In this document: piece after piece, positions 664 through 27,784 of the stretch
How positions within the stretch are numbered: position 1 is the first letter of the stretch
How the letters are laid out: the number at the start of each line of letters is the position of its first letter
Translations under genes and position numbers: made by a program
Source of the DNA: Bacteroidales bacterium
Lineage (GTDB): Bacteria > Bacteroidota > Bacteroidia > Bacteroidales > UBA932
Assembly: GCA_017398335.1 (NCBI GenBank)
Contig: JAFQGK010000065.1
Span: 9,765-73,764 of the forward strand
DNA: 64,000 nucleotides
Reading direction: 5' to 3'
The notes under the pieces: generated by a model
Seen by the model: only the letters and a program-made list of their open reading frames with translations
The model's database searches: none
What the model was told of the DNA's origin: nothing

Positions 664-2736
664 ATGACAAAGAAATTACAATTGACTATATTCTTTCTTC
701 TTACGCTCATTTGCAGTAATGTGTATGCGTCTGAAAATCAATCATTTGAAAGATGGCAAGATGATAAGTTCTCTATGTTCATCCATTTCGGTCTGTACTC
801 ACATCTGGGAGGTGTCTGGAACGGAGAGCCTGTGCGTCAGGGATATAGCGAGCAGATTCAGTCCTTTGCCGGAATATTCAGTGACTGGTATGCATCAGTT
901 GCCGATGATTTCAATCCTGTGAACTTCAATGCAGATGCTGTCGTGGCGTTGGCAAAGGATGCAGGCATGCGTTCTGTGGTCTTTACATCCAAGCATCATG
1001 ACGGATTCTGCATGTTCGATTCTGCAACGACGGATTATGATAGTGTTGACGCGACCCCGTCCGGAAGGGATTATGTGAGAGAACTGTCAGACGCCTGTGC
1101 CAGGGAGGGAATAAGGTTCGGACTCTATTTTTCGCTGATTGACTGGCATTGTCCGTATGCCTTTCCTATATCAAGTCATAATGCGGATTTCATAACGGAA
1201 CAGCATCATGAACTGAACAAAGCTCAAGTAAGAGAACTTCTCACTTCATATGGACCTGTATCCGAACTATGGTTCGACATGGGTGCTCTTACCCCAACGC
1301 AGAGCCAGGAACTGTATTCTCTGGTAAAGGAAATCCAGCCGGAATGTATGGTGAGCGGCAGATTGGGAAATGATGTGTATGACTTTGCCGTGATGGCAGA
1401 TAACAGGTTGCCGGAAAGACAGTTGCATGCTCCGTGGCAGAGTGCGGCTTCAATGTTTCCCGAGACTTGGAGCTGGAGGAGCTGGCAGGAGAGGGGAGAT
1501 GTCGGTACGAAGGTCAGCGAGAAACTCAAAAGTCTGACGGATGTAGCCTCAAGGGGCGGAAACTATCTTCTGAATATCGGTCCCCAATCTGACGGAAGCG
1601 TGGTGCCGTTTGAGCGTGAGGTACTCATGCTAATGGGTCTGTGGCTCAAGGAAAACGGTGATGCCGTGTATGGTACTTCTCCTTCTCCATACAGGAATCT
1701 CTTCGATTGGGGGTGTGTTACTGTAAAAGGCAACAGAATGAACCTGATCCTTACCGGAGTATACCCTGAAGATGGGAGGATTGTCTTGCCAGTGAAAGGA
1801 TATCATGTGAAATCCTGCTGTACCAAGGGAGTCGGATGTATTCAAAGGAAGGAGATTCTGGAACTGCAGATAGGAAAGGATATGTTCGCAGACATGGCTG
1901 CCCCTTCCGTCATACGGCTTGACTTCGATAAGGATATAGAGCCTTTCGAGGTTTTTGCACCTCTTGATGCTTCGGCCGTTCTGGCGTGGGATAATGCTGC
2001 ACCCGACTACAGCTATTCCTGTTTCGACTATTACAGCAATTACCGCAGTACCGTGGGATATAACTGGGTGATTTCCGGCAGGAAGAAAGTATCTTCTTTT
2101 GAAATCATATATACTCAGGATGAGATAGGCAGAAAGTTGCTTCTGGAGGTTGGGAATGAGAGAATTCCAGTTGAGCTCGACGGAATGGAAGCTGCTGTCG
2201 ATATTCTTGAAGCGGATGTCCGGGACGTCATAATATCGCCAATCAGGGGAGGAGTGTTCGATCGTCCTTCTTCGTGGGCAGACTTTGATTGGCAATCGTT
2301 TACCGGTGAGGCACCGGAAACTGTGTCTTTTGCATCCCGTCCGTTCACAAATTATCTTTTGACTGCGGAAGTTGTCATGCAGTCAGAAGGATATACGCTT
2401 CTTGATGTGTACTCAGGAAACGGCGTGGAACTCATTGTCAATGGAGAACCGATGATGAAACATCTTAATCCCTATCGTTCCCTTCTTCATAAGGAAAGCG
2501 TGCTTCTATATCTTCAGAAAGGGAAAAATCAGGTTGCCGTCAGGTCGTATAACCGTTTTGAAAAGGTCGCTTCGGCTATGGTCGGATCAGGCGAAGGCAA
2601 GTTGTTCAGGAATGTGGTCACTCTCCCGGCTTCAGTACCGGCATCTTCCGGTTTGAAAGTACGTATAAGTGCTCTCGATAGAACATCGTCTCATTCAGAC
2701 TGTCTGCTTCACAATATCCGTTTGAAAGCTGATTGA
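664..2736 (+). CDS. Secreted alpha-L-fucosidase-like protein (GH29) with C-terminal beta-sandwich domains
   Basis: Signal peptide; GH29 motifs MFIHFGLYS, KHHDGF, ELWFD (nucleophile), GGNYLLNIGP. Confidence 0.85.
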   Translation: MTKKLQLTIFFLLTLICSNVYASENQSFERWQDDKFSMFIHFGLYSHLGGVWNGEPVRQGYSEQIQSFAGIFSDWYASVADDFNPVNFNADAVVALAKDAGMRSVVFTSKHHDGFCMFDSATTDYDSVDATPSGRDYVRELSDACAREGIRFGLYFSLIDWHCPYAFPISSHNADFITEQHHELNKAQVRELLTSYGPVSELWFDMGALTPTQSQELYSLVKEIQPECMVSGRLGNDVYDFAVMADNRLPERQLHAPWQSAASMFPETWSWRSWQERGDVGTKVSEKLKSLTDVASRGGNYLLNIGPQSDGSVVPFEREVLMLMGLWLKENGDAVYGTSPSPYRNLFDWGCVTVKGNRMNLILTGVYPEDGRIVLPVKGYHVKSCCTKGVGCIQRKEILELQIGKDMFADMAAPSVIRLDFDKDIEPFEVFAPLDASAVLAWDNAAPDYSYSCFDYYSNYRSTVGYNWVISGRKKVSSFEIIYTQDEIGRKLLLEVGNERIPVELDGMEAAVDILEADVRDVIISPIRGGVFDRPSSWADFDWQSFTGEAPETVSFASRPFTNYLLTAEVVMQSEGYTLLDVYSGNGVELIVNGEPMMKHLNPYRSLLHKESVLLYLQKGKNQVAVRSYNRFEKVASAMVGSGEGKLFRNVVTLPASVPASSGLKVRISALDRTSSHSDCLLHNIRLKAD

Positions 2737-2746
2737 TTATTTAAAT

Positions 2747-2778
2747 TTTGGCGATTCTATAAAAAATAGCTAAATTTG
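2747..2778 (+). promoter_or_regulatory. Bacteroidetes sigma-A promoter (-33 TTTG / -7 TAAATTTG)
   Basis: TTTG at 2747-2750, 20-nt spacer, TAAATTTG at 2771-2778, upstream of the lipoprotein gene. Confidence 0.7.
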
Positions 2779-2861: not shown

Positions 2862-4682
2862 ATGAATAAACGCCTTGGCCTTACTGTCTTAGCAACAGTT
2901 TTATCTCTTTGTGGATGCAAGGTAAATCCGATTGACGCAGGTGAACAGACCAAGCTGAATGTTGTCTTGTATGAAGGTGCTGTAGAACTGGCCGACAAGA
3001 AGTTCGGCATGTATTATGGCGACAAATATGGAAATGAAACAGGTGTGTATTATGTGGTTCTGAGTGATGCGATGTGCTATCGCTCGGGATTCGGCAAGCC
3101 TTATATGGATTCTGAAGGTGATATGCTGGTGCTGGAATTCAACGGACCTCTTCCTGAAGATGACTATAATCCTACAATACCTAACGGAACGTATGTCGTG
3201 GGAACAGAAGGCCAGACTCTTGTCAATCCTCAGAATTCATATGTGCAGCGTTTCTCCGGCAATATCCAGAGCCGCTACAGAATCGTTTCCGGTTCTGTGA
3301 CAGTAGGAACGTCCCAGACTGGCGGATATGATATCTATACTACCGATCTGGTTATTGAAAAAGCCGGGATCGAATATGCTGTCAGATATTCCTACAACGG
3401 TGACATCCTCCTGCAGGATTATAAACTGGTGGCACCTTCTCTTATCGGTCTTAAGGAGGATGTCATAGATGTTCCATACGATGTAGCCGAGGGCGGTTAT
3501 TACGGCAATATTTACGGCTATGGTACTGCAAACTATATGGTTACCTTGAGTACCAGAGGCTTTTCAGATGATACAAGTAATCAGCTTCCGGGCATGATGC
3601 TGGTTCTCAATCTTTTTGACGAAATACCTAAGGGAGATGACAAGAAGATCATTATCACTCCCGGCGAATACAAAGTGCAGACTTATATGAATGCAGCCGT
3701 AGGCACAATGTTATACGGACTGACAATGACAGCATCTTCTGGCGCAAGTTCTCCTTTCGGTACGTTCTTCTATCAGATAACAGCCAATGGTCAGGAGTCG
3801 ATAGAGTATATAGACGCAGGTACGTTGATTGTCGATCATGATGATGATGCGGATGGAGACGGAATCTATAAATATACATTCGACTATGATTTCCAGTCAT
3901 CTTCTTCCGGAAGGTCGTATACTGGACAATGGATAGGTGAGGTGCCGATTTCAGACCTCTCGACAGATTCGGACAGGGTCATTCTCTCTACCCTTGAGGA
4001 TGATGTCATGTGTGATATGTCTAAGATAGAGACAGGTACACTTTCCAAGGTCGAGACACTTAAATCAACTTTGAATACTCCGGAATCTCCTAGCTTCGAT
4101 CTCAAGACCGTGTGGCAGCTTCATCTTCAGCCTCGAGACTGGACAGCGGATGAAAAGAATAATTATGAATGGGATGACCGTCTTGATGTCTGGTGTCCTG
4201 ACGGAGACTGTATGGTGCTCGAATTCATCCTTCCAGTGGACTCTAATGGAGAAATCGCTCCTAGACCAAATTATGAATATGTCTATACGATTCAGCCTAA
4301 TTGTTCGATAGATGATCCTGAAAACTCGATGTCCTGCAGCCAGATGGGACGCCCTTATGACGATCTCTTCCATCCAGAGACAGCTGCATACTGGGGATAT
4401 ACGAAGTACAGCTGGTTCCCTAAGGAGTTTGACTACTGCAACGCGAGAAGAGGCTTTACCTGGGACGGATGGTTCAGAGGTGTATGGTACTATCATTTGC
4501 GTACAGGCAAGTATTTTGATATGGATGAAAATGCACCTGCAGTTTTCGGTACAGTCAAGGTAATGAGAAATGGAAATATATATTCCATTGTCTGGGATCT
4601 TCTGGATGATGCTGAGGCTCCAAATAAGATCCAGGGTGAATGGAAAGGACAGATCAGACGCGCAGTCAATATTGAAGAATAA
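2862..4682 (+). CDS. Hypothetical lipoprotein with about three internally repeated beta-rich domains
   Basis: Lipobox LCGC; repeated motifs YYGDKYG/YYGNIYG and MLVLEF/MLVLNL/MVLEF. Confidence 0.75.
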   Translation: MNKRLGLTVLATVLSLCGCKVNPIDAGEQTKLNVVLYEGAVELADKKFGMYYGDKYGNETGVYYVVLSDAMCYRSGFGKPYMDSEGDMLVLEFNGPLPEDDYNPTIPNGTYVVGTEGQTLVNPQNSYVQRFSGNIQSRYRIVSGSVTVGTSQTGGYDIYTTDLVIEKAGIEYAVRYSYNGDILLQDYKLVAPSLIGLKEDVIDVPYDVAEGGYYGNIYGYGTANYMVTLSTRGFSDDTSNQLPGMMLVLNLFDEIPKGDDKKIIITPGEYKVQTYMNAAVGTMLYGLTMTASSGASSPFGTFFYQITANGQESIEYIDAGTLIVDHDDDADGDGIYKYTFDYDFQSSSSGRSYTGQWIGEVPISDLSTDSDRVILSTLEDDVMCDMSKIETGTLSKVETLKSTLNTPESPSFDLKTVWQLHLQPRDWTADEKNNYEWDDRLDVWCPDGDCMVLEFILPVDSNGEIAPRPNYEYVYTIQPNCSIDDPENSMSCSQMGRPYDDLFHPETAAYWGYTKYSWFPKEFDYCNARRGFTWDGWFRGVWYYHLRTGKYFDMDENAPAVFGTVKVMRNGNIYSIVWDLLDDAEAPNKIQGEWKGQIRRAVNIEE

Positions 4683-4689
4683 ATATATT

Positions 4690-5151
4690 ATGGAAAGAAC
4701 ATTGGTTATTCTTAAGCCCGGATGTCTTCAGAGAGGACTTGTCGGCGAAGTTATTTCAAGATTCGAAAAAAGGGGTCTAAAGCTGGTTGCCATGAAGATG
4801 GTGCAGCTGACAGACGAGATGTTGGATGTTCATTATGCCCATCTTAAGGAGAAACCTTTTTTTCAGTGGCTCAAGGATGGAATGATGGCCGCACCTGTAA
4901 TCCTCTGCTGCTGGGAAGGTTACAGCGCAGTTCAGGTTGTCAGGGATATGGCTGGTGCTACAAGAGCAAGCAAGGCAGTTCCTGGCACAATCAGAGGCGA
5001 TTATAGTGTCAGCGCACAGGAGAATATCGTGCACACATCTGACTCGCTTGAAAATGCTGAGATCGAGCTTAAGAGATTCTTTGTGGATTCTGACTATTGC
5101 GATTATCCGTCACCGCTGAATCAGTACAAGTATGCTCCAGATGAAATGTAA
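4690..5151 (+). CDS. ndk: Nucleoside-diphosphate kinase
   Basis: MERTLVILKP, PGTIRGD and the NIVHTSDS catalytic-His motif. Start moved to the ATG at 4690. Confidence 0.95.
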   Translation: MERTLVILKPGCLQRGLVGEVISRFEKRGLKLVAMKMVQLTDEMLDVHYAHLKEKPFFQWLKDGMMAAPVILCCWEGYSAVQVVRDMAGATRASKAVPGTIRGDYSVSAQENIVHTSDSLENAEIELKRFFVDSDYCDYPSPLNQYKYAPDEM

Positions 5152-5160: not shown

Positions 5161-6642
5161 ATGATGATAAAATCGTTGTGTACAATCCTGTTGACGGTCG
5201 GTCTTCTGACAGGATGTGCCTGCAGTAATGATACAGCTGTCTCTGAAAATTCCGGGACAGCTGTTCTTTGTGATAAGGTCCTTCCGATCACAGGCACGTT
5301 TGTAAACCTTGCATATCAGGATGTCAGGAACAAGTATACGAACCCTGTATCATCCGATATGACCGATCCTTTGCTATGGCAGGCCAAGGTAAAGGAAATG
5401 AAAGAGTTCGGTGTAGAGTATATTGTCTTTATGGCTGTGGCCAATGAGGGTAGGGCCTACTATCCATCCTCCTTGATGCCATGGCATTACCCGGAAACAA
5501 GGACCAGTCCGGTGGATGCGATAATGGACGCTGCTGCTGATTGCGGTATCAAGGTGTTCATGAGTACGGGTTGGGCTGTGGACCAGGATGACAACCTCAG
5601 GATACCCGCCATAAAGAACAGACAGATCGAAATGATGACGGAACTTGCAGGGCTATATAAGAATCATCCGGCATTGTATGGATGGTATCTGCCTGTTGAG
5701 GATTGTCTTGGTCCCGTGCTGTCTGATTATGCCGTGAGTGCTGTGAATTCTCTTTCGCAGAAAGCAAGGCAGCTGACTCCGGATAAGAAGATACTTATTT
5801 CTCCTTATGGTATATTCAACTCCGATTTCTCCGATCCACGATATGCAGACCAGATATGCAGTCTGAAAGTCGATATCATTGCATATCAGGATGAGATAGG
5901 TTGCGTCCGTGAGGACTATCCTTTGACAAGGCTCAGAGATAACTGGAAGAAGCTGAGAGCTGTTCATGACAGATGCGGAATCGAGATGTGGGCCAATTGC
6001 GAGTCTTTTGCCTGGGAGGGAAATACAAACGACAGGACGTCTGCGCTGATTCCAGCGTCTTTCAGCCGATTGCTTTCCCAGCAGGCTGCTGCGACCGCAG
6101 GAGGGGCGGAAAGGATAATCTCCTTTATGATAACAGGCATATACGAACCGTCGTCATCTTCATATCGCCTAGGCCAGCCACATTGGTCAAATGTGGCGTA
6201 TGATGATTATATGGCATGGAAATCAGGAGACAGATATTGGTCTGTTGTCGAAGCATCTCTGACAGGACGTTACGGCCCTTTGGCAACCGAGGATTTCCGT
6301 GACCCAAGATGGAGATTTTATGAGGCAGACGAATCTTTGATCCATGATATGGGAGAGGAAACGACATTGAAATCAGTGCTTGTCCGTATGCTTCATTCAA
6401 GAAAGGATAAGATACTTCCACCGTCTTTATTGTCGCTTTATACCAGCATGGACGGTGAAAACTATACTCTCAGACAAATCTTATCTTGTCCGGCGTTCCC
6501 TAACGACAGACATGATACTTTCGTTGATAATGTATATCTGGATAAATTCGAACCAGTCTCTGCACGATATGTAAAGATATCTTTCAATGCAGATTCAAGA
6601 GCTGCATTTGACAGACTGGTAATAAATCCCGATCTTGATTAG
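5161..6642 (+). CDS. DUF4434-family TIM-barrel lipoprotein (putative glycoside hydrolase) with a C-terminal F5/8-like domain
   Basis: Lipobox LTGC; motifs ITGTF, YGWYLPVE, AYQD, WANCESF; paralogous to 9255-10337. Confidence 0.75.
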   Translation: MMIKSLCTILLTVGLLTGCACSNDTAVSENSGTAVLCDKVLPITGTFVNLAYQDVRNKYTNPVSSDMTDPLLWQAKVKEMKEFGVEYIVFMAVANEGRAYYPSSLMPWHYPETRTSPVDAIMDAAADCGIKVFMSTGWAVDQDDNLRIPAIKNRQIEMMTELAGLYKNHPALYGWYLPVEDCLGPVLSDYAVSAVNSLSQKARQLTPDKKILISPYGIFNSDFSDPRYADQICSLKVDIIAYQDEIGCVREDYPLTRLRDNWKKLRAVHDRCGIEMWANCESFAWEGNTNDRTSALIPASFSRLLSQQAAATAGGAERIISFMITGIYEPSSSSYRLGQPHWSNVAYDDYMAWKSGDRYWSVVEASLTGRYGPLATEDFRDPRWRFYEADESLIHDMGEETTLKSVLVRMLHSRKDKILPPSLLSLYTSMDGENYTLRQILSCPAFPNDRHDTFVDNVYLDKFEPVSARYVKISFNADSRAAFDRLVINPDLD

Positions 6643-7841
6643 AGTAGTCCCAGAACTTTGCTTCTGGACAACATACATGCTCCGATAGGGCCTCCTTTCT
6701 CTCCGAGTCTGGAGGTCTTTATCTTTGTGTCCTTGTTGATGATGTTGAGTGAGTGCTTCTGAATGGCGGCCTTTATCGGAAGCATGAGGTACTCTCTGGC
6801 TCCCGCCATCTTTCCGCCTATGACGACCAGTTCGGGATTGAATACGTTGATGATCCCGGCTATCGCTCTTCCCAGTACTCCACCTATTTCTTCAATGACC
6901 TCAATTGCAAGTACATCCTCTTCTTCAATAGCCATGAGTATGTCTTCAAGCATTATTTCCTGACCGCTATGGAACTTGTCCGCAAGTATGGATGCACGGC
7001 CTTCAGCAAGCCTCTCCATAAGGATTCTGTGCGCAGCATATCCGGAAGCTCCTGTCTCCAGACATCCTCTTTTACCGCATTGACAGATCTGGTCGTTGTT
7101 GAGCATAGGGAAGTGACCGATTTCGCCAGAGAATCCTGATTTACCGTATAGCAGTTTACCGTTCAGTATCATACCCATTCCAAGTCCCCAGGTGACATTG
7201 ATGAAAAGCATGTCCTTCTCATTCTTGCCTACTCCGCATATGTACTCACCGTATGTCATGGCTCTTGAGTCGTTCTCGACGAAAACCCTGCCGCCAAGTT
7301 CCTCCTCCATCAGAGAGGCTATCGGCCTGTCTTCACCGATGAAGTATGTAAAGCAATAGCCTGTTTCGTTGTTTACGCGACCGGAGAGATTGAGGCCATA
7401 TGCCAGGACCTCTTCCTCCTTGATGCCGGACTTCCTGATGTTATCCTTTATGATGGAGCATAGATTACGGAATGAATCGGCAGAACTCTCTACCTTGAAC
7501 GGAATGCTGTCTATGTAATCTACAATATCTCCCCTGAAGTCAGCTATCGCTATGCTGACATGGTGCCGTCTTACATCTGTGCCGATAAAATATCCGGCTG
7601 ATGCTTTAAGACCATATATGTTAGGCCTTCTTCCTCCATTCGTGTCCAGTTTTCCAAGGTCTTCCAGGAATCCTTCTTCAATCAATTCCTCTACAAGTTT
7701 GGTCGTGGTCGGTATGCTGGTGTTGAGTTCACGGCTCAAGTCAGCAATGCTGTAGCGCCCTTCTGTTACGCACAGACCAAGAATTTTCTTTTTAAGTAGA
7801 AAATTCTTGCTTTCAGAGCTATTCAGAAAAAAGTTTTTCAT
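6639..7841 (-). CDS. ROK-family transcriptional repressor (NagC/XylR-like)
   Basis: N-terminal HTH (SIADLSRELNTSIPTTTKLVEEL), GGRRP motif, ROK Zn motif GEIGH...CQCGKRGCLE. Confidence 0.92.
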   Translation of the reverse strand: MKNFFLNSSESKNFLLKKKILGLCVTEGRYSIADLSRELNTSIPTTTKLVEELIEEGFLEDLGKLDTNGGRRPNIYGLKASAGYFIGTDVRRHHVSIAIADFRGDIVDYIDSIPFKVESSADSFRNLCSIIKDNIRKSGIKEEEVLAYGLNLSGRVNNETGYCFTYFIGEDRPIASLMEEELGGRVFVENDSRAMTYGEYICGVGKNEKDMLFINVTWGLGMGMILNGKLLYGKSGFSGEIGHFPMLNNDQICQCGKRGCLETGASGYAAHRILMERLAEGRASILADKFHSGQEIMLEDILMAIEEEDVLAIEVIEEIGGVLGRAIAGIINVFNPELVVIGGKMAGAREYLMLPIKAAIQKHSLNIINKDTKIKTSRLGEKGGPIGACMLSRSKVLGLL

Positions 7842-10360: not shown

Positions 10361-10470
10361 CAAATGTAGTTTCTTTTGTGATAATTTCAAATATCTGTTA
10401 AAGTTTTTAAAATAATTTAAAAATAATTCGGGTGTTTTGATTAGAATTTAAATAATTAGTTATATATTTG
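10361..10470. promoter_or_regulatory. Divergent sigma-A promoters of the PUL
   Basis: TACATTTG on the minus strand (10361-10368) and TATATTTG on the plus strand (10463-10470) in an AT-rich gap. Confidence 0.65.
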
Positions 10471-14800: not shown

Positions 14801-15070
14801 GGACATGGTGGAGACAACGGCCTTGCATCGACTTTCTGGCTCCGTGATGGTACATATGTACGTCTTAAGTCAGCACAGCTGGGATATACTTTCCCTCGCA
14901 AGTGGACAGAGAAGATCAAGGTTGAGACTATCAGATTCTTTGTCGAAGGCCAGAATCTCTTCACTATCGACGGACTTCCAGAGGGAATCGACCCTGAGTC
15001 ACCAGGTGTGAACAACGGATATTATCCACAGCAGCGTCTCCTTATGGGAGGTATCACCTTGACATTCTAA
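11851..15070 (+). CDS. susC: SusC/RagA TonB-dependent transporter, frameshifted at a G9 tract (open ORF only from ~11978)
   Basis: Plug motifs IVVGYGTQKK and IESISVLKDGASAAVYG...ANGIIIVTTKKG; C-terminal aromatic (LTF). The signal peptide from ATG 11851 is out of frame by +1. Confidence 0.9.
11898..11906 (+). repeat. Poly-G (G9) homopolymer, candidate slipped-strand switch
   Basis: Removing one G joins MKAIYRNLLVLLVFLLGG to AASLYAQPSIRGKVTDENGQPLPGV, in frame with SusC. Confidence 0.85.
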
Positions 15071-20983: not shown

Positions 20984-22549
20984 ATGAAAAAAATTGCTTT
21001 GATGCTGATGGCAGCATGTTTTGCTGTTGTCGCTTGTGAGGATGAGTTTGTTCCTCATGCTGATTTCCCACCTACACAGGTGACTATCCCTGCAGTAGGT
21101 ACAGACGAGGTACCTGTTGCATTTGATTTCTCTGCAAATGCAGCATGGACTGCCACTCTCGTAGGTGAGAATGTAGTCGAGTGGCTCTCTATCTCTCCTA
21201 AGAAGGGTGAGGCTGGTGATGCTACAATCAAGTTCACTGCAACTGCAAACACAGACAAAGAGAACCGCACTGCGACTCTCGAGATCACTGTTGCAGGTCT
21301 TGAGCCAATCCAGGTTCCTGTAGTTCAGCTTCAGAAGAACGCTATCGACGTAAACGCTGAGGATGCTTACACTGTATCTTTCAAGGGCGGTACAGTTGAG
21401 ATCGAGGTTGGTCACAATGTTGACTACACATACGAGGTTTCAGCTGAGTGGCTTGCTGAGGTTAAGTCTAAGGCTTACACAACTGACAAGCTTACTTTCT
21501 CTGCTCCAGAGCAGGAGGTTAACGCTCCAGCAAGAACTGCTACTGTAACTGTATACAGCGAGCTTGGTGTTGTTAAGGTCGTTACTGTTACTCAGGAGGC
21601 TTGGAGTCCTATCGTATGGTCTAAGTCACTTTCTGAGCTTGGCGCTACAGCTGGCCGTGTAGGTGTCGGTGCTTTCGGTAACTATGTTGCTTTCACTGCT
21701 AACGGTGCTGCATACCTCGCAGATGCTGCTACTGGTGAGAATGTTCAGAAAATTCCACTCCCTGACGGATTCGTAGCAGGTGGTGTTCACGTTGATGATG
21801 CTGGTAACCTTATGGTTTCTGGTCCGGATTGTCAGGTAGTAGGCGATGCTCCTTCAGGTGGACAGATGGGTGGAAATCTTCAACTCTATCTTGTTGATCC
21901 TACAACATTTACTCCTACTCCACTTGTTGACTACAATTCAGCTAACTTCTATTGCACAGAGATGGGTAACTTCCGCGTTAAGGGTGATGTTACAAAGGAC
22001 GCTGTAATTGCTGCTTATGTATGTACTGGTCCTGGCGCAACTTATGTTCTTTACTGGGAAGTTAAGAATGGCGTAGTAGCTGCTCCTGCTTACACAGTGC
22101 TTCCTGACTACTCTTGGGATGCTTCAACAGGTGTTGCAGCTCCAGTTGGTGCTACTCTTGCTGACGGTTTCTACTGTATCACTTATGGTGCTGATTACGA
22201 CCTCTTCTATTACGATGGAGCTGAGTGGGCTAAGACTTGGGAATCCCCTGCCTCTTGGATGGAGAACTTCAACTGTATTTCTACAACTGAAGTAAACGGT
22301 GTCAAGTATCTTGCTCTTACAATGTCTTGCCACTTCAACTATGACTACACTGATATCGTAGTTCTCGATGTAACTGATCCTAAGGCAGCTAAGGAAGTAT
22401 TCAAGATCCAGATGAACTTCCACACTACAAACGAGGCTGGTCTTACATACTCAGACATCTTCATCAAGGGTGAGGACGGCAAGCTCGCAGCTTACGTGAT
22501 CGACCCATGGATGGATGCAGTTGAGAAGTATCTCTTCCCACTTGAGTAA
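20984..22549 (+). CDS. Lipoprotein with tandem BACON domains and a C-terminal propeller-like domain
   Basis: Lipobox VVAC; BACON motifs WTA...WLSISP..G...NTDKENRTATLEIT...V.Q, present twice. Confidence 0.75.
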   Translation: MKKIALMLMAACFAVVACEDEFVPHADFPPTQVTIPAVGTDEVPVAFDFSANAAWTATLVGENVVEWLSISPKKGEAGDATIKFTATANTDKENRTATLEITVAGLEPIQVPVVQLQKNAIDVNAEDAYTVSFKGGTVEIEVGHNVDYTYEVSAEWLAEVKSKAYTTDKLTFSAPEQEVNAPARTATVTVYSELGVVKVVTVTQEAWSPIVWSKSLSELGATAGRVGVGAFGNYVAFTANGAAYLADAATGENVQKIPLPDGFVAGGVHVDDAGNLMVSGPDCQVVGDAPSGGQMGGNLQLYLVDPTTFTPTPLVDYNSANFYCTEMGNFRVKGDVTKDAVIAAYVCTGPGATYVLYWEVKNGVVAAPAYTVLPDYSWDASTGVAAPVGATLADGFYCITYGADYDLFYYDGAEWAKTWESPASWMENFNCISTTEVNGVKYLALTMSCHFNYDYTDIVVLDVTDPKAAKEVFKIQMNFHTTNEAGLTYSDIFIKGEDGKLAAYVIDPWMDAVEKYLFPLE

Positions 22550-22625: not shown

Positions 22626-23789
22626 ATGGATTTCAAGAAACTTGCTGCTCAGTATAAGAGCGAGCTATTGGACAGCGTCCTTCCTTTCTGGCTTGAGAAG
22701 TCACAGGACCTCGAGTATGGCGGATATTTCAGCTGTCTGAACCGTGACGGTAGTGTCTTTGACACTGACAAGTTCATCTGGCTTCAGGGAAGGGAAGTGT
22801 GGATGTTTGCGATGTTGTATAATAAGGTGGAGAAGAAGCAGGAGTGGCTTGATTGCGCTATTCAGGGAGCTGAGTTCCTTAAGAAGCATGCGCACGACGG
22901 TAATTATGACTTCTATTTTTCGGTTACCCGTGAAGGAAATCCTATCATTCAGCCTTATAACATCTTCTCGAATACATTCGCATGTATGGCATTCGCCCAG
23001 CTTGCAGAGGCTACAGGCAGCGAGGAGTACAAGGAGATTGCTCTGAAGACTTTCCAGAGGATTCTTGACCGCCGTAATGATCCTAAGGGACGTTGGGAAA
23101 AATCATATCCCGGAACACGTCCTATGAAGGGCTTTGCTCTTCCTATGATCATATGCAACATGGCGCTTGAAATCGAAAACATCCTGCCGGATAAATCCAT
23201 GCTGGATGTCACAATCGACGAGTGCCTTGGTGAAATCCTGAATGTGTTCTATCAGCCTGACCTTGGCGTGATGCTGGAGAATGTCTCTCCGGACGGTACG
23301 CCGATAGATTGCTTTGAAGGACGTGAAATCAATCCCGGACATGATCTGGAGGCACTCTGGTTCATGATGAATCTCGGTATACGTCGTAATGACAAGGCAT
23401 TGATTGAGAAGTGTGTAAAGATTTCTCTCGATGTCATCGAGTATGGCTGGGACAAGGAATATGGCGGCATATTCTATTTCATGGACAGCAAGTGTGTTCC
23501 ACAGCAGAAGCTTGAGTGGGATCAGAAACTCTGGTGGGTTCATCTCGAATCGGCCATCTGCATGATAAAGGGCTACCAGTTGACAGGCAATCTTCAGTGT
23601 CTTGAGTGGTTCAACAGGCTCCACGATTATATGTGGACGCATTTCAAGGATGAAGAGTATCCTGAGTGGTATGGATATCTGAATCGTCGTGGCGAGGTTC
23701 TGCTTCCTCTTAAAGGCGGCAAATGGAAGGGATGCTTCCATGTTCCTCGTGGACTCTATCAGATATGGCAGATCCTTGAAACACTTTAA
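22626..23789 (+). CDS. N-acylglucosamine 2-epimerase (AGE family; Bacteroides NanE-like)
   Basis: Motifs DKFIWLQGR, NPGHDLE, KLWWVH, EWYGYLNRRG, KGGKWKGCFHVPR. Confidence 0.9.
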   Translation: MDFKKLAAQYKSELLDSVLPFWLEKSQDLEYGGYFSCLNRDGSVFDTDKFIWLQGREVWMFAMLYNKVEKKQEWLDCAIQGAEFLKKHAHDGNYDFYFSVTREGNPIIQPYNIFSNTFACMAFAQLAEATGSEEYKEIALKTFQRILDRRNDPKGRWEKSYPGTRPMKGFALPMIICNMALEIENILPDKSMLDVTIDECLGEILNVFYQPDLGVMLENVSPDGTPIDCFEGREINPGHDLEALWFMMNLGIRRNDKALIEKCVKISLDVIEYGWDKEYGGIFYFMDSKCVPQQKLEWDQKLWWVHLESAICMIKGYQLTGNLQCLEWFNRLHDYMWTHFKDEEYPEWYGYLNRRGEVLLPLKGGKWKGCFHVPRGLYQIWQILETL

Positions 23790-23809: not shown

Positions 23810-23844
23810 AAAAACGCTGTATGAGGTAATCATACAGCGTTTTT
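23810..23844. terminator. Bidirectional terminator between convergent genes
   Basis: AAAAACGCTGTATGA-ggtaa-TCATACAGCGTTTTT, a perfect 15-bp stem. Confidence 0.85.
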
Positions 23845-23860
23845 AAATAAATATATGCCT

Positions 23861-25285
23861 CTATCGGTTGATTTCCTGTCTGTAGACTCTACCGAAGCGG
23901 TCTGTGACGCGTACTTCAATGACTTTGGCACCAGGGGACAGACTTGCACGGAACATGTTCCATGTCGGATATGCACAGACCCATTCTCTCTTGAACTTGC
24001 CTGTTGCAGGGCTGTAATAGCTCTTCGCTGCCGGATCATATCCCTTGAATCTTTCCATGTCGCATACCTTTACGCCATCCTCGAAATATTCTACTTTCCA
24101 CATAGGATCGTAATCCCAAATGTTGGCAACTGTATATCCTTTGTATTCGTCATCATCGACATATACCTTCATCTGATGGTCGAGCGGCTTGCCGCTTGAT
24201 TTGAACTGCCAGGTCACCTTATCTCCGTCAAATTCAATTGCCTTCCATCCTATAGGAGTGCCGTCGATGCAGTATGGACCGCACCACCATGCGCCACAAA
24301 GGCCGGAAATGTTCTGTTCCATCAGATCTGGAGTGATGATCTGGTTCATTGATGTGTGCGTATGTCCGGACAATATTATAGCTTTATAAGGAGCAAGTCT
24401 TTCGTATAGCGCTTTCTTATTGCTCATTATTTCGCTTATGTCGTTGTAGCTGAATGCTTCACGGTCGGATTCCCAGAGTGTAGTAGGAATGTGTACGGAA
24501 ACTACTACGGTAGAGCCGGCCGGTACATATGACAGATCTCTTTCCAGCCAGCGAAGCTGCCTCTGTTCAAGGTATCCGATATAGAACCAGTCGCGTCCGA
24601 TAAAGAAGTTGTTGTTCAGAACAACATAATGGACTTTTCCTACGTTGAATGAGTACCATGCAGGTCCGAATGCATCCTCGAAATCTTTGGCCGATCCTTC
24701 AAACTGATTGCCCCAGCATGTCATGTCATGGTTGCCCATCACTATCCTCATAGGAATTCCTACATGATCGAAAGCCTTCTTGATACCGGGGTAGAGCCTA
24801 TGGTCCCATCCTACGAGGTCTCCGAGGCAGATTGCAAAGGTCTCGTCAGAATCCATGGATTTGACGAATTCTCCCATAGCCTTGGTCTGCTCTTCAAGCT
24901 GAGGCAGCTCATCAGCTTCTGAAATCTGTGGGTCGGCAAATGCTATGAGATTGTGGCGTGTGTCATCCTTTTCCTTTTTCCTGACGATGAAATCATAGCT
25001 CTTCTTAGCATTTCTGCCTATGGCCATGAAGTAAGACTCATTTCCGGCACTTGTAGACGAACTGTAACCAGCCGGAGTCGAGATGAATATGAATCTGCTG
25101 TCCTGATCCGGATCGATCTCGAAACGTCCTTTACTGTCAGTGACTGTCGTCAGCAGACCATCTGAAACTACTACGCCCGAGATTGCATTCCCTTCGGTAT
25201 CCTTTACGGTTCCTTTGATTTCTTTTGCATCTGCATATGAGAATGTATATGCCAATGCTAAAAATATGGTAAGTATTCTTTTCAT
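23861..25285 (-). CDS. Secreted calcineurin-like metallophosphoesterase (MetallophosN/C architecture)
   Basis: Signal peptide from MKRILTIF; motifs GVVVSDG, ADPQ, LGDL, GNHD, SGHTH, CGAWW. Confidence 0.87.
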   Translation of the reverse strand: MKRILTIFLALAYTFSYADAKEIKGTVKDTEGNAISGVVVSDGLLTTVTDSKGRFEIDPDQDSRFIFISTPAGYSSSTSAGNESYFMAIGRNAKKSYDFIVRKKEKDDTRHNLIAFADPQISEADELPQLEEQTKAMGEFVKSMDSDETFAICLGDLVGWDHRLYPGIKKAFDHVGIPMRIVMGNHDMTCWGNQFEGSAKDFEDAFGPAWYSFNVGKVHYVVLNNNFFIGRDWFYIGYLEQRQLRWLERDLSYVPAGSTVVVSVHIPTTLWESDREAFSYNDISEIMSNKKALYERLAPYKAIILSGHTHTSMNQIITPDLMEQNISGLCGAWWCGPYCIDGTPIGWKAIEFDGDKVTWQFKSSGKPLDHQMKVYVDDDEYKGYTVANIWDYDPMWKVEYFEDGVKVCDMERFKGYDPAAKSYYSPATGKFKREWVCAYPTWNMFRASLSPGAKVIEVRVTDRFGRVYRQEINR

Positions 25286-25298: not shown

Positions 25299-26411
25299 TT
25301 ACCTGTATGCCTTTCCTTCCATCTCCCAGCCTGTAAGGGTAGAGATATATGGAATCGCACAGCTTGCTACCTTTATCTGGCCTTTATAATTCGGATGCCA
25401 GCATGCTCCGAGCTCATTGTCTTCGTTATATACATCCCTGGTCAGACCCATATAGGAAATGTTCTTCAATCCGCTTGTGCGGCACGCCTCCCTAATGTAG
25501 TCATATGTATAAGGAGAACAGTTTGAAGCCATACAAAGTATCGGAATGTCTTCACCGTAGGCCGCTCTGATCTTGTTCAGCAGTTCCGTATAGCGTGCAG
25601 CAAACCTTTCTGAGGATGGCTGCTCTCCTGTGGAGAAATCGTTTGTTCCCAAGTATATCACCACTATGTCTGGGGTGAATTCAGCCTTGGACTGGTCCCA
25701 TATAAGAGTCTTGTCTTCATCGAATGCCTGGCTGTATCTGTCCGGCATGTTATATCCGCTTCTGCTGCCGCCATAATTTCTGGCAATTCCTTGTCCCGAG
25801 TGACATACAAGATTGTAGTCGGCGTTGAAGTACCTTGCCGCTATGGCAGCATATGTGAGGTTGCAATTTTCCGTTTTGGCTTCGAACGGATCGTCCTTTG
25901 AACTGCTTTCCGTACCGAATCCTGCCGTATATGAATCTCCTATGAATTCAATGTGTCTTTCCTTGCGCCCGTCTGCCTGAAGCACTTCTCCTTCGGTCAG
26001 GAAAGAATGCAGGGTTATTTTACCTTGCTCTCCTTCCGTCTTTTTCTGGAGTATCACTTCGTGTTCCCCCTTTCCAAGCCCCTCAGCAAGGACTATTACG
26101 GTATCTTTAGCTTCAACTGAGAACCTTCTGTCTGCCTCAGGTCCCATTTCCTTGTCGATCCACAGGTTGAACCAGCTGTTTCTGGAGTCAGAGCATCTTA
26201 CTGCAAGGTACGGTCCGTTGAAACGTATTCTGAGATATACTCCGCTCCAATCGTATGACACCTCCGCACCATCCTTGATGACACGTCCGGTGTATTCTAT
26301 GCGGCTGTCGGAGGCCGGTGTCTCTATCCTTTCGACTTTTCTTCTGGCAGAAAGATCGCTGCAGAGTGCTGATGTGGCTGCAATGGCCAGTAATAAAATG
26401 AATCTTTTCAT
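25299..26411 (-). CDS. SGNH/GDSL esterase, CE2-like acetyl esterase
   Basis: Motifs EFIGDSYTAGFG, SGQG, LGTND, WHPN; CE2-type N-terminal jelly-roll; signal peptide MKRFILL. Confidence 0.82.
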   Translation of the reverse strand: MKRFILLLAIAATSALCSDLSARRKVERIETPASDSRIEYTGRVIKDGAEVSYDWSGVYLRIRFNGPYLAVRCSDSRNSWFNLWIDKEMGPEADRRFSVEAKDTVIVLAEGLGKGEHEVILQKKTEGEQGKITLHSFLTEGEVLQADGRKERHIEFIGDSYTAGFGTESSSKDDPFEAKTENCNLTYAAIAARYFNADYNLVCHSGQGIARNYGGSRSGYNMPDRYSQAFDEDKTLIWDQSKAEFTPDIVVIYLGTNDFSTGEQPSSERFAARYTELLNKIRAAYGEDIPILCMASNCSPYTYDYIREACRTSGLKNISYMGLTRDVYNEDNELGACWHPNYKGQIKVASCAIPYISTLTGWEMEGKAYR

Positions 26412-26413
26412 AT

Positions 26414-27784
26414 CTAGCTTCTCCAAAATAATTTCAGTTTAGTGAACATATATGTAAATATCATCATCAGTCCCGTAATGATCACTCCTTGAACAACTCC
26501 CCAGAACTGGGAGCCTTCTGACAGAGACGAGAGGAGGCCGTATGCTCCGGTAAGGTTAAGGATCGGACCGATAAGGAATGAGGTTATGGTATAGGCGATC
26601 ATCGGATTCTGTCCGACACCGGCCAGAAATCTTTGTCTGACATTGAACCTGATTTCCAGCATGAGCAGGAAGGATGTCACCAGAGCTGCCATTCCGCCTG
26701 TAGTAAGCAGATAGGAAATGTTGCAGTAATCTTTGGTTATTCCTCCGTCTATGGGGTCGAAAACAATGCCGGTCAGCATGAGGGCGAAGCCTGTGTATGC
26801 CGTAAAGGTGTATATGTTTCTTGACTTAAATGTCAGGATAATGAATATTGCTGCAAGTACGGCAGATATAATGAAGTCAGCAGTGACATTTCTTGTATAT
26901 AGGCCCCATAGCTGAATCAGCATGGCAGCAAGTGCAATAGCTCCTGCAGCTACGCCTTTATTGTCAATTGTTGCAGGTTCCCCGCTTCTGCTGTATGCTA
27001 GAATCCTGTCACCTACGACTGATGACGGAATGACAATCAGAAGATACTGCAGCCAGTCCCAGGTGAAGAACCAGCTGATCGAGTCTGTCGAAGGAATGAT
27101 TGACAATGTTTCGGGAATGTAGGAGTCCATGGCTTTAAGAGCTGCCGCGAGCAGAAAGACAAGCCATCTCAGCCTTGTGTTGTCTCTTGTCAGAAGCCAT
27201 ATGAGTCCACCCCATAATGAAACATTGGCAAGAATCATTATTATTATATCGCACTTTCCTTTGTCAAGAGGAATGCCGAACCATTTGACATGGATGACGC
27301 CCAGAAGACATATTGTGAGTATTCCGCTGATATTGAGTGTGTTGCCGGTCTTGCCCTTTATGCGTACAAGACTCATGAACATTCCTGCCCATAGGGCGAT
27401 CATATAGATATAGACCTGCCATGCAGGCTGTGCAGTAGCTGATACGGAGTATGCGTTGCCGAGAAGTAAGGCGAAACAGGTCAGTATCAGCCATCTTTTG
27501 ACAAGCCCCAGTATTATTTTCCATAGACTTTGTCCACTTTCTATCCTTTTCCTCATTGCGAAAGGAAAGGCTGCTCCCATTGGGAACAGAAAGAATGGGA
27601 ATACGAGATCCACCCATGTCAGACCGGCGCAAGTCGGGTCGAAGGCGTAGGTGGGTGGGGGAGTCTGTGCATGAAACATCCATGCAGGAAGACCGGAGTC
27701 GAATCCTATGTTTGCACATAGGATCATACCAGCGATTGCAATTCCTCTCAGTATGTCAATCGATGCGATGCGTTCCTTGTACAC
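26414..27784 (-). CDS. DUF5009 multi-TM protein (HGSNAT/NagX-like acyltransferase superfamily)
   Basis: RIASIDILRG, WMFHAQTPPP, GLTWVDLVFPFFLF; many TM helices. Confidence 0.78.
   Translation of the reverse strand: MYKERIASIDILRGIAIAGMILCANIGFDSGLPAWMFHAQTPPPTYAFDPTCAGLTWVDLVFPFFLFPMGAAFPFAMRKRIESGQSLWKIILGLVKRWLILTCFALLLGNAYSVSATAQPAWQVYIYMIALWAGMFMSLVRIKGKTGNTLNISGILTICLLGVIHVKWFGIPLDKGKCDIIIMILANVSLWGGLIWLLTRDNTRLRWLVFLLAAALKAMDSYIPETLSIIPSTDSISWFFTWDWLQYLLIVIPSSVVGDRILAYSRSGEPATIDNKGVAAGAIALAAMLIQLWGLYTRNVTADFIISAVLAAIFIILTFKSRNIYTFTAYTGFALMLTGIVFDPIDGGITKDYCNISYLLTTGGMAALVTSFLLMLEIRFNVRQRFLAGVGQNPMIAYTITSFLIGPILNLTGAYGLLSSLSEGSQFWGVVQGVIITGLMMIFTYMFTKLKLFWRS

What the first reader, a model, noticed from the sequence alone, without database searches (positions are those of the whole stretch)
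664..27784. Candidate PUL for a ManNAc- or phosphodiester-containing (bacterial-type) glycan, built largely from uncharacterised enzymes
Seen: SusC/SusD are flanked by two DUF4434 TIM barrels, two GHL10-like hydrolases, a NAGPA phosphodiester glycosidase, a secreted metallophosphoesterase, a CE2-like O-acetyl esterase, a DUF5009 acyltransferase-like protein, GH29, a sugar porter, a ROK repressor and an AGE 2-epimerase. No GH33 sialidase or NanA lyase is visible. Established: AGE/NanE interconverts ManNAc and GlcNAc, NAGPA cleaves sugar-1-phosphodiesters, and E. coli DigH (GHL10 family) acts on peptidoglycan. Inference: the ManNAc may be released directly from a polymer, e.g. teichoic-acid linkage units, secondary wall polymers, O-acetylated ManNAc-phosphate capsules or ECA-like glycans. 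DUF4434/GHL10 would then be candidate N-acetylmannosaminidases, i.e. foraging on other bacteria's envelopes. Related clusters probably exist in other Bacteroidales; I cannot confirm their characterisation status.
Basis: partly seen in the sequence, partly recalled or inferred. Interest (0 to 1): 0.8.

Follow-up and report, generated by a model that had tools for sequence, protein, structure and literature searches.

The report
Orphan amino-sugar phosphoglycan utilisation locus
A gut Bacteroidales bacterium carries a real, widely conserved nutrient-harvesting gene cluster built mostly from uncharacterised enzymes. Its food polymer has never been identified; the enzymes point to acetylated, phosphate-bridged amino-sugar polymers such as cell-envelope glycans of other microbes, not to sialic acid.

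Summary
The core runs from about 5161 to 27784. It holds a ROK regulator, MFS porter, two DUF4434, two GHL10-DUF4985, SusC/D, DUF5018 and BACON lipoproteins, NAGPA, AGE, a metallophosphoesterase, CE2 and DUF5009. This order is kept in more than 30 Bacteroidales genomes. GH29 and the neighbouring unknown lipoprotein lie beyond an ndk gene and do not travel with the locus.

[quoted passage not shown] The kind is therefore known but orphan. This scan has already flagged the family on other DNA (Alistipes, Muribaculaceae and others).

New here:
- The AGE is a separate paralogue, 42% identical to the NanL/sialidase-linked one found in a sister genome.
- The GHL10 enzymes form a distinct DRxRY subfamily that lacks the Asp-Asp pair of DigH/Cwp19.
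- Elsewhere this GHL10 module is fused to NAGPA, metallophosphoesterase, SASA esterase, FAD oxidoreductase or GNAT domains.
- DUF4434 keeps Glu residues after strands 4 and 7, as in clan GH-A.

Best reading (about 0.5): breakdown of an O-acetylated, partly N-deacetylated HexNAc phosphoglycan that contains ManNAc. No substrate was tested.

The parts
664..2736 (+). GH29 alpha-L-fucosidase with signal peptide; adjacent, not core
   Evidence: Pfam Alpha_L_fucos, 235 bits. Full-length orthologues were found in 5 of 60 same-genus genomes, none on a contig that holds the PUL-type AGE.
2862..4682 (+). 606-aa lipoprotein of no known family; travels with GH29, not core
   Evidence: No Pfam or NCBIfam match. 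No named Atlas neighbour. Found in 1 of 36 same-genus genomes, there next to the GH29 orthologue.
4690..5151 (+). ndk (nucleoside diphosphate kinase), a housekeeping gene marking the left edge of the locus
   Evidence: Pfam NDK, 162.5 bits. It ends 9 bases before the next gene.
5161..6642 (+). DUF4434 TIM barrel with C-terminal F5/8 type C domain; lipoprotein signal
   Evidence: Pfam. About 49% identical homologues sit at the end of the locus in L061-L063 and L070. It keeps the invariant Glu pair of alignment A3.
6639..7841 (-). ROK-family regulator with N-terminal winged helix (NagC/Mlc-like); counterpart of the predicted NanR (BT0433) of B. thetaiotaomicron
   Evidence: Pfam ROK plus HTH_24; NCBIfam NagC/Mlc below cut-off; 43-52% identical ROK genes beside the locus in L038, L039, L052, L064; Ravcheev 2013 Table 2.
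7838..9220 (-). Sugar-porter-family MFS transporter (inner membrane import of the released monosaccharide)
   Evidence: Pfam Sugar_tr, 376 bits; TIGR00879 over cut-off. 84-94% identical in most close relatives (63-76% in two, L008 and L017) at the same position. BT0454 is the B. thetaiotaomicron counterpart next to AGE BT0453.
9255..10337 (-). DUF4434 TIM barrel, twin-arginine lipoprotein; candidate retaining beta-glycosidase
   Evidence: Pfam, 279 bits. About 80% identical to PDB 4H41 = BT0435. The N-terminus reads RREFLK ... SC. Invariant E185 and E295 lie after strands 4 and 7 of the model. Foldseek neighbours are Cwp19 and clan GH-A enzymes.
10404..10423 (.). 20-bp A/T palindrome in the divergent promoter; candidate ROK operator
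   Evidence: Conserved in the aligned intergenic regions of 20 related loci, between two TAnnTTTG -7 boxes. It is the only match in the 64-kb window; 0 are expected by chance.
10492..11817 (+). GHL10+DUF4985 lipoprotein, DRxRY subfamily
   Evidence: Pfam. The profile hits Cwp19 at E 7.5e-13. AF2 model pLDDT 90.6; best Foldseek match is Cwp19, then PgaB C-terminal domain, beta-amylase and GH156. Invariant D201-R202-x-R204.
11853..15070 (+). SusC-like TonB-dependent transporter; reading frame broken at a G9 run (11898-11906) in the signal-peptide region
   Evidence: TIGR04056, 835 bits. The ATG at 11853 runs into a stop; relatives L009 and L012 have G8 in frame.
15118..16779 (+). SusD-like lipoprotein
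   Evidence: Pfam SusD_RagB, 205 bits.
16798..18486 (+). DUF5018 surface lipoprotein (probable glycan-binding protein)
   Evidence: Pfam DUF5018, 314 bits. Always follows SusD in related loci.
18490..19536 (+). NAGPA-family phosphodiester glycosidase, lipoprotein
   Evidence: Pfam NAGPA, 99 bits. PDB hits to DUF2233 3OHG and vertebrate NAGPA, with the DGGGS motif aligned. The motif's role is described in PMC13474241.
19538..20956 (+). Second GHL10+DUF4985 lipoprotein (30% identical to the first); acidic stretch after the lipid Cys
   Evidence: Pfam; alignments A1 and A2; N-terminus.
20984..22549 (+). BACON plus DUF5018-like surface lipoprotein
   Evidence: Pfam BACON, 61 bits, and a weak DUF5018 match. 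Position conserved.
22626..23789 (+). N-acyl-D-glucosamine 2-epimerase (AGE), cytoplasmic; only copy in the assembly
   Evidence: NCBIfam equivalog, 672 bits against cut-off 600. 518 and 508 bits to the solved AGEs 6F04 and 2GZ6. Single copy in the assembly. 87-93% identical in related loci.
23861..25285 (-). Secreted metallophosphoesterase with MetallophosN and MetallophosC domains
   Evidence: Pfam. Weak match to purple acid phosphatase. Fused to GHL10 in Bacteroides spp. and, in the opposite order, in P0167.
25299..26411 (-). CE2-type SGNH O-acetyl esterase
   Evidence: Pfam CE2_N plus GDSL. Conserved beside the metallophosphoesterase in 8 related loci.
26414..27784 (-). DUF5009 transmembrane acyltransferase, HGSNAT-like
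   Evidence: Pfam DUF5009, 172 bits. DUF5009 intermixes with the HGSNAT clade in PMC12423673. Present in 34 related loci.

Best explanation
This is a ROK-regulated polysaccharide utilisation locus. It most likely takes apart an O-acetylated, partly N-deacetylated N-acetylhexosamine phosphoglycan that contains ManNAc. The most plausible source is cell-envelope polymers of other microbes: teichoic-acid-type or secondary wall polymers with their GlcNAc-1-phosphate linkage units, or sugar-1-phosphate capsules.

Every step of the proposed route is inferred:
1. DUF5018, BACON and SusD lipoproteins bind the polymer at the cell surface. A surface GHL10 enzyme cuts it, and SusC imports the fragments.
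2. In the periplasm, CE2 removes O-acetyl groups. DUF5009 re-acetylates free amino groups with cytoplasmic acetyl-CoA, as HGSNAT does.
3. NAGPA cleaves HexNAc-alpha-1-phosphate bridges. The metallophosphoesterase removes the phosphate thus exposed. The DRxRY GHL10s cut the anionic backbone.
4. The twin-arginine-exported DUF4434 acts as a retaining beta-glycosidase and frees the last sugar, possibly beta-ManNAc.
5. The MFS porter imports ManNAc/GlcNAc and AGE converts ManNAc to GlcNAc. A ROK kinase and a NagB-like gene for the later steps lie elsewhere in the genome.
6. The ROK repressor at the 10404-10423 palindrome senses an amino-sugar product.
For: Shown here:
- All families are present, and the gene order is conserved in more than 30 loci.
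- NAGPA keeps the DGGGS catalytic loop.
- AGE passes the NCBIfam equivalog cut-off and scores about 510-520 bits to solved AGEs.
- No NanL or GH33 was found in the assembly. A same-genus genome holds a separate SusD-NanL-AGE-GH33-GH20 cluster whose AGE is only 42% identical.
- The GHL10-DUF4985 module occurs fused to a metallophosphoesterase in both orders, and to NAGPA, SASA esterase, FAD oxidoreductase and GNAT acetyltransferase domains. These fusions link the activities to one substrate.
- Invariant Arg residues replace the second Asp of DigH/Cwp19. Where the motif could be read, 85 of about 103 motif hits, found in 113 of the 150 best representatives, read DRxR[YFW] and none read DD. This fits an anionic ligand.
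- Accessory genes in related loci are further O-acetyl esterases, a second phosphoesterase, GH20 and HGSNAT-like proteins.
- DUF4434 has invariant Glu after strands 4 and 7, and clan GH-A neighbours.
- The MFS, DUF4434 and AGE proteins are far more conserved (80-93%) than the surface proteins (40-60%), as expected for enzymes that handle a fixed small product.
- DUF5009 groups with HGSNAT.

From my own knowledge of mechanism, not tested here: beta-ManNAc cannot use substrate-assisted catalysis, so a two-carboxylate GH-A-type enzyme is the expected solution.
Against: - No substrate, induction or enzyme activity has been tested for any member.
[quoted passage not shown] Expression therefore does not need other bacteria and could reflect host, dietary or self-derived material.
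- The locus has no glycerol- or ribitol-phosphodiesterase, amidase, peptidase or MurNAc-specific enzyme.
- Vertebrate NAGPA is specific for terminal alpha-GlcNAc, not ManNAc.
- Sugar-porter MFS transporters are not known HexNAc importers (own knowledge).
- PUL-type AGE occurs in 12 same-genus genomes where no NAGPA orthologue was found at E <= 1e-40, so the two are not obligately linked.
- susC is out of frame in this assembly.
Confidence: 0.5

Rival explanations
1. The locus harvests a host glycan. Candidates are N-glycans carrying GlcNAc-alpha-1-phosphate-6-Man (the natural NAGPA substrate), or alpha-GlcNAc-capped or heparan-like structures. AGE would serve general amino-sugar metabolism.
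For: NAGPA and HGSNAT are both lysosomal host-glycan enzymes. In B. thetaiotaomicron the homologous region includes GH89 alpha-N-acetylglucosaminidase BT0438 and abuts the sialidase/N-glycan cluster BT0455-0461; its operons are induced in vivo. GH29 fucosidase lies next to the locus here.
Against: GlcNAc-P-Man glycans are rare (own knowledge), yet the locus is highly conserved in small-genome ruminant-gut bacteria. The window locus has no GH18, GH92, GH2, GH33 or GH89. GH29 is not conserved with it. Host glycans contain no ManNAc unless sialic acid is cleaved by a lyase, and none was found in this assembly. PMC6989115 still calls the B. thetaiotaomicron inducers unknown.
Confidence: 0.15
2. 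The target is peptidoglycan itself. The GHL10 enzymes would cut denuded glycan strands as DigH and Cwp19 do. CE2 would remove MurNAc O-acetyl groups and DUF5009 would re-acetylate GlcN. NAGPA and the phosphatase would only clear wall-polymer stubs.
For: The only studied GHL10 members act on peptidoglycan, and Cwp19 is the best sequence and fold match. The genome has a MurQ-like SIS gene next to GH20 and a DUF4015-like gene.
Against: The Asp-Asp pair shared by DigH and Cwp19 is Asp-Arg in every PUL GHL10 read. The locus has no amidase, peptidase, lysozyme, MurNAc kinase or etherase. Peptidoglycan gives no ManNAc, so the conserved AGE would be unexplained.
Confidence: 0.1
3. The target is a partly de-N-acetylated biofilm exopolysaccharide without phosphate in its backbone (PNAG-like or Pel/galactosaminogalactan-like). 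The GHL10s would be GH153-like endo-hydrolases.
For: PgaB C-terminal (GH153) structures are the second-best fold match, with weak sequence hits to PgaB and GHL13. The DUF5009 and GNAT partners fit a polymer with free amino groups.
Against: This does not explain the conserved NAGPA, the phosphoesterases or their fusions to GHL10, nor the AGE.
Confidence: 0.08
4. The locus is the downstream part of sialic-acid or free amino-sugar scavenging. ManNAc would come from Neu5Ac split by other community members, as implied by the name NanR regulon ("sialic acid; N-acetylglucosamine").
For: Ravcheev 2013 assigns the B. thetaiotaomicron ROK regulator BT0433 to sialic acid and GlcNAc use. AGE works in the Bacteroides-type sialic-acid pathway (own knowledge).
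Against: No lyase or sialidase was found in this assembly. The genus uses a different AGE paralogue with NanL and GH33. A SusC/D system with seven secreted enzymes is not needed to take up a free monosaccharide.
Confidence: 0.05

Closest known systems
Bacteroides thetaiotaomicron VPI-5482 BT0433-BT0454 (predicted NanR regulon; PUL8 BT0439-0443 and PUL9 BT0449-0453)
   Same: Same families: ROK regulator, DUF4434 (BT0435, about 80% identical to the window protein), AGE (BT0437, BT0453), sugar-porter MFS (BT0454), SusC/D, a DUF5018-type lipoprotein (BT0450), GHL10 genes (BT0447, BT0449), a calcineurin-like phosphoesterase (BT0448; seen as a GHL10::phosphoesterase fusion in the related Bacteroides loci fetched here), and DUF5009 (BT0446).
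   Different: B. thetaiotaomicron has two SusC/D sets, two AGE genes, GH89 and DUF4855. I could not confirm a NAGPA gene in strain VPI-5482; the NAGPA-bearing B. thetaiotaomicron locus fetched (L048) has a different order. Its substrate is unknown, so comparison gives membership but no function.
Vertebrate uncovering enzyme NAGPA and bacterial DUF2233 (PDB 3OHG, 6PKU/6PKY)
   Same: Pfam family over cut-off; the DGGGS loop aligns.
   Different: Only the C-terminal 120 or so residues align by sequence (E 1e-10 to 1e-5). The window protein is a lipoprotein and has no EGF stalk or propeptide. Sugar specificity is unknown.
GHL10 enzymes DigH (E. coli) and Cwp19 (C. difficile)
   Same: Pfam GHL10; TIM-barrel fold closest to Cwp19; no Glu at strand 7.
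   Different: The FDDYFY motif of DigH and Cwp19 is LDRVRY here. An extra C-terminal DUF4985 domain is present. The context is a PUL, not cell division or the S-layer.
Bacteroides-type sialic-acid cluster (NanL lyase, NanE/AGE epimerase, NanT; with GH33)
   Same: Uses an AGE-family epimerase to turn ManNAc into GlcNAc.
   Different: No lyase or sialidase here. The AGE is a different paralogue, 42% identical to the NanL-linked one of same-genus genome G004.
Human HGSNAT (heparan-alpha-glucosaminide N-acetyltransferase)
   Same: DUF5009 groups with HGSNAT in the TmAT superfamily.
   Different: No DUF5009 protein has been assayed; the acceptor sugar is unknown.

Membership tests
Bacteroidota polysaccharide utilisation locus (Sus-like) | Adjacent susC-like TonB-dependent transporter and susD-like lipoprotein with co-oriented secreted enzymes | tested here: met
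   TIGR04056 at 835 bits and SusD_RagB at 205 bits, followed by five lipoprotein genes on the same strand. Caveat: susC is frameshifted at the G9 run.
B. thetaiotaomicron BT0433-BT0454-type orphan locus family | Co-occurrence of ROK regulator, DUF4434, AGE, sugar-porter MFS, SusC/D, DUF5018-type lipoprotein, GHL10-DUF4985, MetallophosN/C phosphoesterase and DUF5009 | tested here: met
   All are present in the window. The B. thetaiotaomicron gene list comes from papers. The DUF4434 is about 80% identical to BT0435.
NAGPA / DUF2233 phosphodiester glycosidase | Pfam PF09992 over the gathering score | tested here: met
   99.3 bits against 25.
NAGPA / DUF2233 phosphodiester glycosidase | Invariant DGGGS substrate-binding and catalytic loop | tested here: met
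   NLDGGGSS aligns with the loop in 3OHG, 6OZD and 6U11. The motif is defined in PMC13474241.
NAGPA / DUF2233 phosphodiester glycosidase | Hydrolysis of HexNAc-alpha-1-phosphodiester at the glycosidic C-O bond | not testable with these tools
   Needs an enzyme assay.
GHL10 (DigH/Cwp19 type) | Pfam PF02638 over cut-off and Cwp19-like TIM barrel | tested here: met
   67.6 and 52.8 bits against 27.9. Profile E 7.5e-13 to Cwp19. Foldseek top hits are 5OQ2 and 5OQ3.
GHL10 (DigH/Cwp19 type) | Asp-Asp pair at the end of strand 4 (Cwp19 Asp195-Asp196, proposed catalytic) | tested here: not met
   D201-R202 in all 26 aligned PUL enzymes. Among the 150 best representatives none reads DD; E. coli DigH has DD.
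N-acyl-D-glucosamine 2-epimerase (AGE) | NCBIfam equivalog NF052547 over cut-off and close similarity to assayed or solved AGEs | tested here: met
   672 bits against 600. 518 and 508 bits to 6F04 and 2GZ6; about 70 bits to cellobiose 2-epimerases.
Sialic-acid (nan) utilisation cluster | N-acetylneuraminate lyase and GH33 sialidase in the locus or genome | tested here: not met
   One DHDPS-family gene (76 bits to the nanA model, against 100-174 bits for the NanL-like genes of sister genomes). No BNR_2 match over the cut-off. The assembly is 86% complete.
Clan GH-A-like retaining glycosidase (for DUF4434) | Acidic residues at the C-terminal ends of strands 4 and 7 of the TIM barrel | tested here: met
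   Invariant E185 (strand 177-182) and E295 (strand 289-293) across 17 sequences down to 20% identity. Fold neighbours are GH53, GH10 and GH5. A catalytic role has not been assayed.
HGSNAT-like transmembrane acetyltransferase (for DUF5009) | Pfam DUF5009/HGSNAT_cat match and TmAT fold | tested here: met
   171.7 bits against 25. The literature places DUF5009 within the HGSNAT clade. Catalytic residues were not checked.

The most novel reading that the evidence does not exclude
The locus family is a dedicated system by which gut Bacteroidales eat the wall teichoic-acid linkage units, secondary wall polymers or HexNAc-1-phosphate capsules of other microbes. Within it, DUF4434 would be the first exo-beta-N-acetylmannosaminidase family. 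The DRxRY GHL10-DUF4985 enzymes would be a new family of phosphoglycan-specific glycanases that work in relay with a bacterial "uncovering enzyme" and a phosphatase.
Probability: 0.3. Interest if true: 0.8.

Novelty: new member of a known kind. Interest (0 to 1): 0.5.

Why it matters
The locus family is conserved from human-gut Bacteroides to small-genome ruminant-gut Bacteroidales. It contains at least four enzyme families with no assayed member: DUF4434, the DRxRY GHL10-DUF4985 subfamily, DUF5009 and bacterial NAGPA. Its substrate has been unknown since it was reported as induced in vivo. Identifying that substrate would assign activities to these families. It would explain why bacteria without a sialic-acid lyase keep a ManNAc epimerase. 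If the prey is other microbes' envelopes, it would also reveal a route of bacterial necromass recycling in the gut. This window adds a compact single-copy version and the fusion and motif evidence. The experiments are better done in cultured Bacteroides.

Tried and rejected
- Single-sequence PDB search with GHL10 found nothing; a profile was needed.
- For the 606-aa lipoprotein, Pfam, NCBIfam and the protein Atlas gave no family.
- Das et al. 2013 (DUF2233 structure) and Martens et al. 2008 (the in vivo induction data) are not held. The in vivo statement therefore rests on its citation in PMC6989115.
- Literature searches for DUF4434, DUF4985, DUF5018, GHL10, phosphodiester glycosidase and BT0435-BT0454 found no functional characterisation of the locus.
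I therefore could not test expression, or whether reads show G8 or G9 in susC.
- The palindrome at 10404-10423 was not found upstream of the GH29 operon or the DUF5009 operon at up to 2 mismatches, so a shared operator for those operons is not shown.
- I considered and rejected GH29 as a member of the locus.
- I rejected the idea that contigs labelled as Firmicutes show the locus outside Bacteroidota. They carry SusC/D genes about 55% identical to the window's, so mis-binning is more likely.
- No complex prediction was run, because no binding claim is made.

Full report
**What is there**

In order:
- GH29, 664-2736
- a 606-aa lipoprotein with no family, 2862-4682
- ndk, 4690-5151
- DUF4434 with an F5/8-C domain, 5161-6642
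- on the minus strand: a ROK regulator with a winged helix (6639-7841), a sugar-porter MFS (7838-9220) and a second DUF4434 (9255-10337)
- on the plus strand: GHL10+DUF4985 (10492-11817), SusC (11853-15070), SusD, DUF5018, NAGPA (18490-19536), a second GHL10+DUF4985 (19538-20956), a BACON lipoprotein and AGE (22626-23789)
- on the minus strand: DUF5009, CE2 and a MetallophosN/C phosphoesterase (27784 down to 23861)

Beyond these lie metF, metH and housekeeping genes. N-termini show lipoprotein signals on nearly all secreted parts. The 9255-10337 DUF4434 has a twin-arginine signal, so it is exported, not cytoplasmic.

**Where it comes from and how conserved it is**

The window lies in a 2.2-Mb assembly, 86% complete. 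The nearest NAGPA homologues come from ruminant-gut Bacteroidales and Candidatus Cryptobacteroides genomes.

I mapped the window's proteins onto 80 fetched loci. The order MFS-DUF4434-GHL10-SusC-SusD-DUF5018-NAGPA-GHL10-BACON-AGE recurs in more than 30 of them, usually followed by phosphoesterase, CE2 and DUF5009. Rearranged versions occur in B. stercorirosoris, B. ovatus, B. xylanisolvens, B. faecis, B. pyogenes, Barnesiella, Hoylesella and Muribaculaceae.

MFS, DUF4434 and AGE are 80-93% identical across loci whose surface proteins are only 40-60% identical.

GH29 and the 606-aa protein do not travel with the locus. The 606-aa protein is in 1 of 36 sister genomes, there next to the GH29 orthologue. 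GH29 orthologues never share a contig with the PUL-type AGE. ndk separates this pair from the rest.

**Regulation**

The divergent promoter (10338-10491) holds two Bacteroides-type TAnnTTTG -7 boxes. Between them is a 20-bp A/T palindrome that is conserved in 20 related loci. It is unique in the window, with 0 matches expected by chance. I take it as the candidate ROK operator; this is inference.

**Known counterpart**

The exported DUF4434 is about 80% identical to PDB 4H41, which is BT0435 of B. thetaiotaomicron. Papers give the neighbouring B. thetaiotaomicron genes:
- BT0437 and BT0453: AGE
- BT0438: GH89
- BT0439-0443 and BT0449-0453: SusC/D operons, PUL8 and PUL9
- BT0446: DUF5009
- BT0447 and BT0449: GHL10
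- BT0448: phosphoesterase
- BT0454: sugar porter

Ravcheev et al. 2013 predicted a ROK regulator, NanR (BT0433), for "sialic acid; N-acetylglucosamine". [quoted passage not shown] It also shows induction by carbon limitation through BT4338. No held paper assigns a substrate.

Earlier notes of this scan describe the same family in other genomes. I reached the B. thetaiotaomicron link independently; the Ravcheev lead came from those notes and I checked it.

**Not a sialic-acid locus**

The assembly has one DHDPS-family gene, scoring 76 bits to the nanA model. It has no BNR sialidase over the cut-off and a single AGE.

In 61 genomes of the genus, AGE-family genes fall into score classes. The window's type (230 bits or more) is in 27 genomes. 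A type scoring about 170 bits lies beside NanL-like genes. In genome G004 that second type sits in a SusD-NanL-AGE-GH33-GH20 cluster and is 42% identical to the window's AGE.

The window's AGE passes the NCBIfam equivalog cut-off. It scores 518 and 508 bits to the solved Nostoc and Anabaena AGEs, against about 70 bits to cellobiose 2-epimerases.

NAGPA orthologues occur in 17 of 61 genomes. In 8 of these they lie within 10 kb of the PUL-type AGE. Twelve genomes have that AGE without a detected NAGPA. The epimerase/DUF4434/porter module is therefore wider than this particular front end.

**The enzymes**

- *NAGPA.* It keeps the DGGGS loop that binds GlcNAc and phosphate in the human enzyme.
- *GHL10 fold.* A 26-sequence profile hits Cwp19 at E 7.5e-13. 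The AlphaFold model (pLDDT 90.6) matches Cwp19 best, then the PgaB C-terminal domain, beta-amylases and GH156.
- *GHL10 motif.* The Asp-Asp pair of Cwp19 (Asp195-Asp196) and of E. coli DigH is Asp-Arg here, with invariant D201, R202 and R204. Among the 150 best of 850 representative homologues, 85 of about 103 readable motif hits are DRxR[YFW] and none is DD. This is a separate subfamily. The DigH/peptidoglycan analogy should not be carried over.
- *GHL10 fusions.* The GHL10-DUF4985 module is found fused to MetallophosN/C in both orders, and to NAGPA, SASA esterase, FAD_oxidored (PF12831), an F5/8-C insert and GNAT acetyltransferase domains. These are the same partner families that sit beside it in the loci. 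That ties glycan cleavage, phosphodiester and phosphate removal, O-deacetylation and N-acetylation to one substrate.
- *DUF4434.* It has invariant Glu185 and Glu295 just after strands 4 and 7 of its model. Its fold neighbours are Cwp19 and the clan GH-A families GH53, GH10 and GH5. This is the layout of retaining beta-glycosidases.
- *DUF5009.* It groups with HGSNAT.

**Interpretation**

The most coherent substrate class is an O-acetylated, partly N-deacetylated HexNAc phosphoglycan that yields ManNAc. The likeliest sources are microbial envelope polymers: teichoic-acid linkage units, ManNAc-containing secondary wall polymers, or sugar-1-phosphate capsules.

It remains inference, and several points weigh against a strictly bacterial prey:
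- The B. thetaiotaomicron operons are induced in vivo and by starvation.
- The locus has no polyol-phosphodiesterase, amidase or MurNAc enzymes.
- Known NAGPA is specific for GlcNAc.

I put about 0.5 on the phosphoglycan reading. I put 0.15 on a host glycan, 0.1 on peptidoglycan proper, 0.08 on a phosphate-free de-N-acetylated exopolysaccharide, and 0.05 on a sialic-acid or free amino-sugar role.

**Verdict**

The locus is a new member of a known but orphan locus family. Interest is moderate: the open question is real and testable. But tractable models carry the same genes, and this window adds refinement (paralogue split, DRxRY subfamily, fusions, locus boundaries) rather than a new kind of system.

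Noticed in passing
window 11853-11960 (G run 11898-11906): susC starts at the ATG at 11853 but a run of nine G shifts the frame into a stop. Relatives L009 and L012 have eight G at the same place and read through. This is either an assembly error or slipped-strand switching; reads could not be examined.
   Followed up: partly
window 10404-10423: A perfect 20-bp A/T palindrome lies between two divergent TAnnTTTG promoter boxes. It is conserved in 20 related loci and unique in the window. It is a candidate operator of the ROK regulator.
   Followed up: partly
own genome contigs C6, C15, C24, C29, C43, C50: At least nine further MetallophosN/C-type phosphoesterase paralogues (24-30% identical) are scattered in a 2.2-Mb genome. 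All other enzymes of the locus are single-copy, apart from the locus's own GHL10 and DUF4434 pairs.
   Followed up: no
L092 (G004:C17:14000-23000): A same-genus genome has a canonical SusD / NanL-like lyase / AGE paralogue / GH33 sialidase / GH20 cluster. Its AGE is 42% identical to the window's.
   Followed up: yes
L015:12202-15200, L029:14274-17240 and 14 other loci: A GxDLY/GDSL_3 esterase and a 480-620-aa FAD_oxidored (PF12831) protein recur inside related loci. The same FAD domain is fused to GHL10 in P0177. This hints at an oxidative step that the window's version lacks.
   Followed up: partly
L065, L069, L071, L072: Contigs labelled Lachnoclostridium, Oscillibacter, Vescimonas and Acutalibacteraceae carry this SusC/D locus, with SusC about 55% identical to the window's. 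They are probably mis-binned Bacteroidales contigs rather than evidence of transfer to Firmicutes.
   Followed up: no
L086 (G000:C52:18743-22438): A MurQ-like SIS gene (246 bits, below the 302 cut-off) lies between a GH20 gene and a gene with lamin-tail and DUF4015-like domains. This may be a separate amino-sugar or muropeptide module.
   Followed up: partly
window 22550-22625 and 23790-23860: GC-rich hairpins followed by T runs lie before and after AGE. The second could act as a two-way terminator between AGE and the convergent phosphoesterase operon.
   Followed up: no
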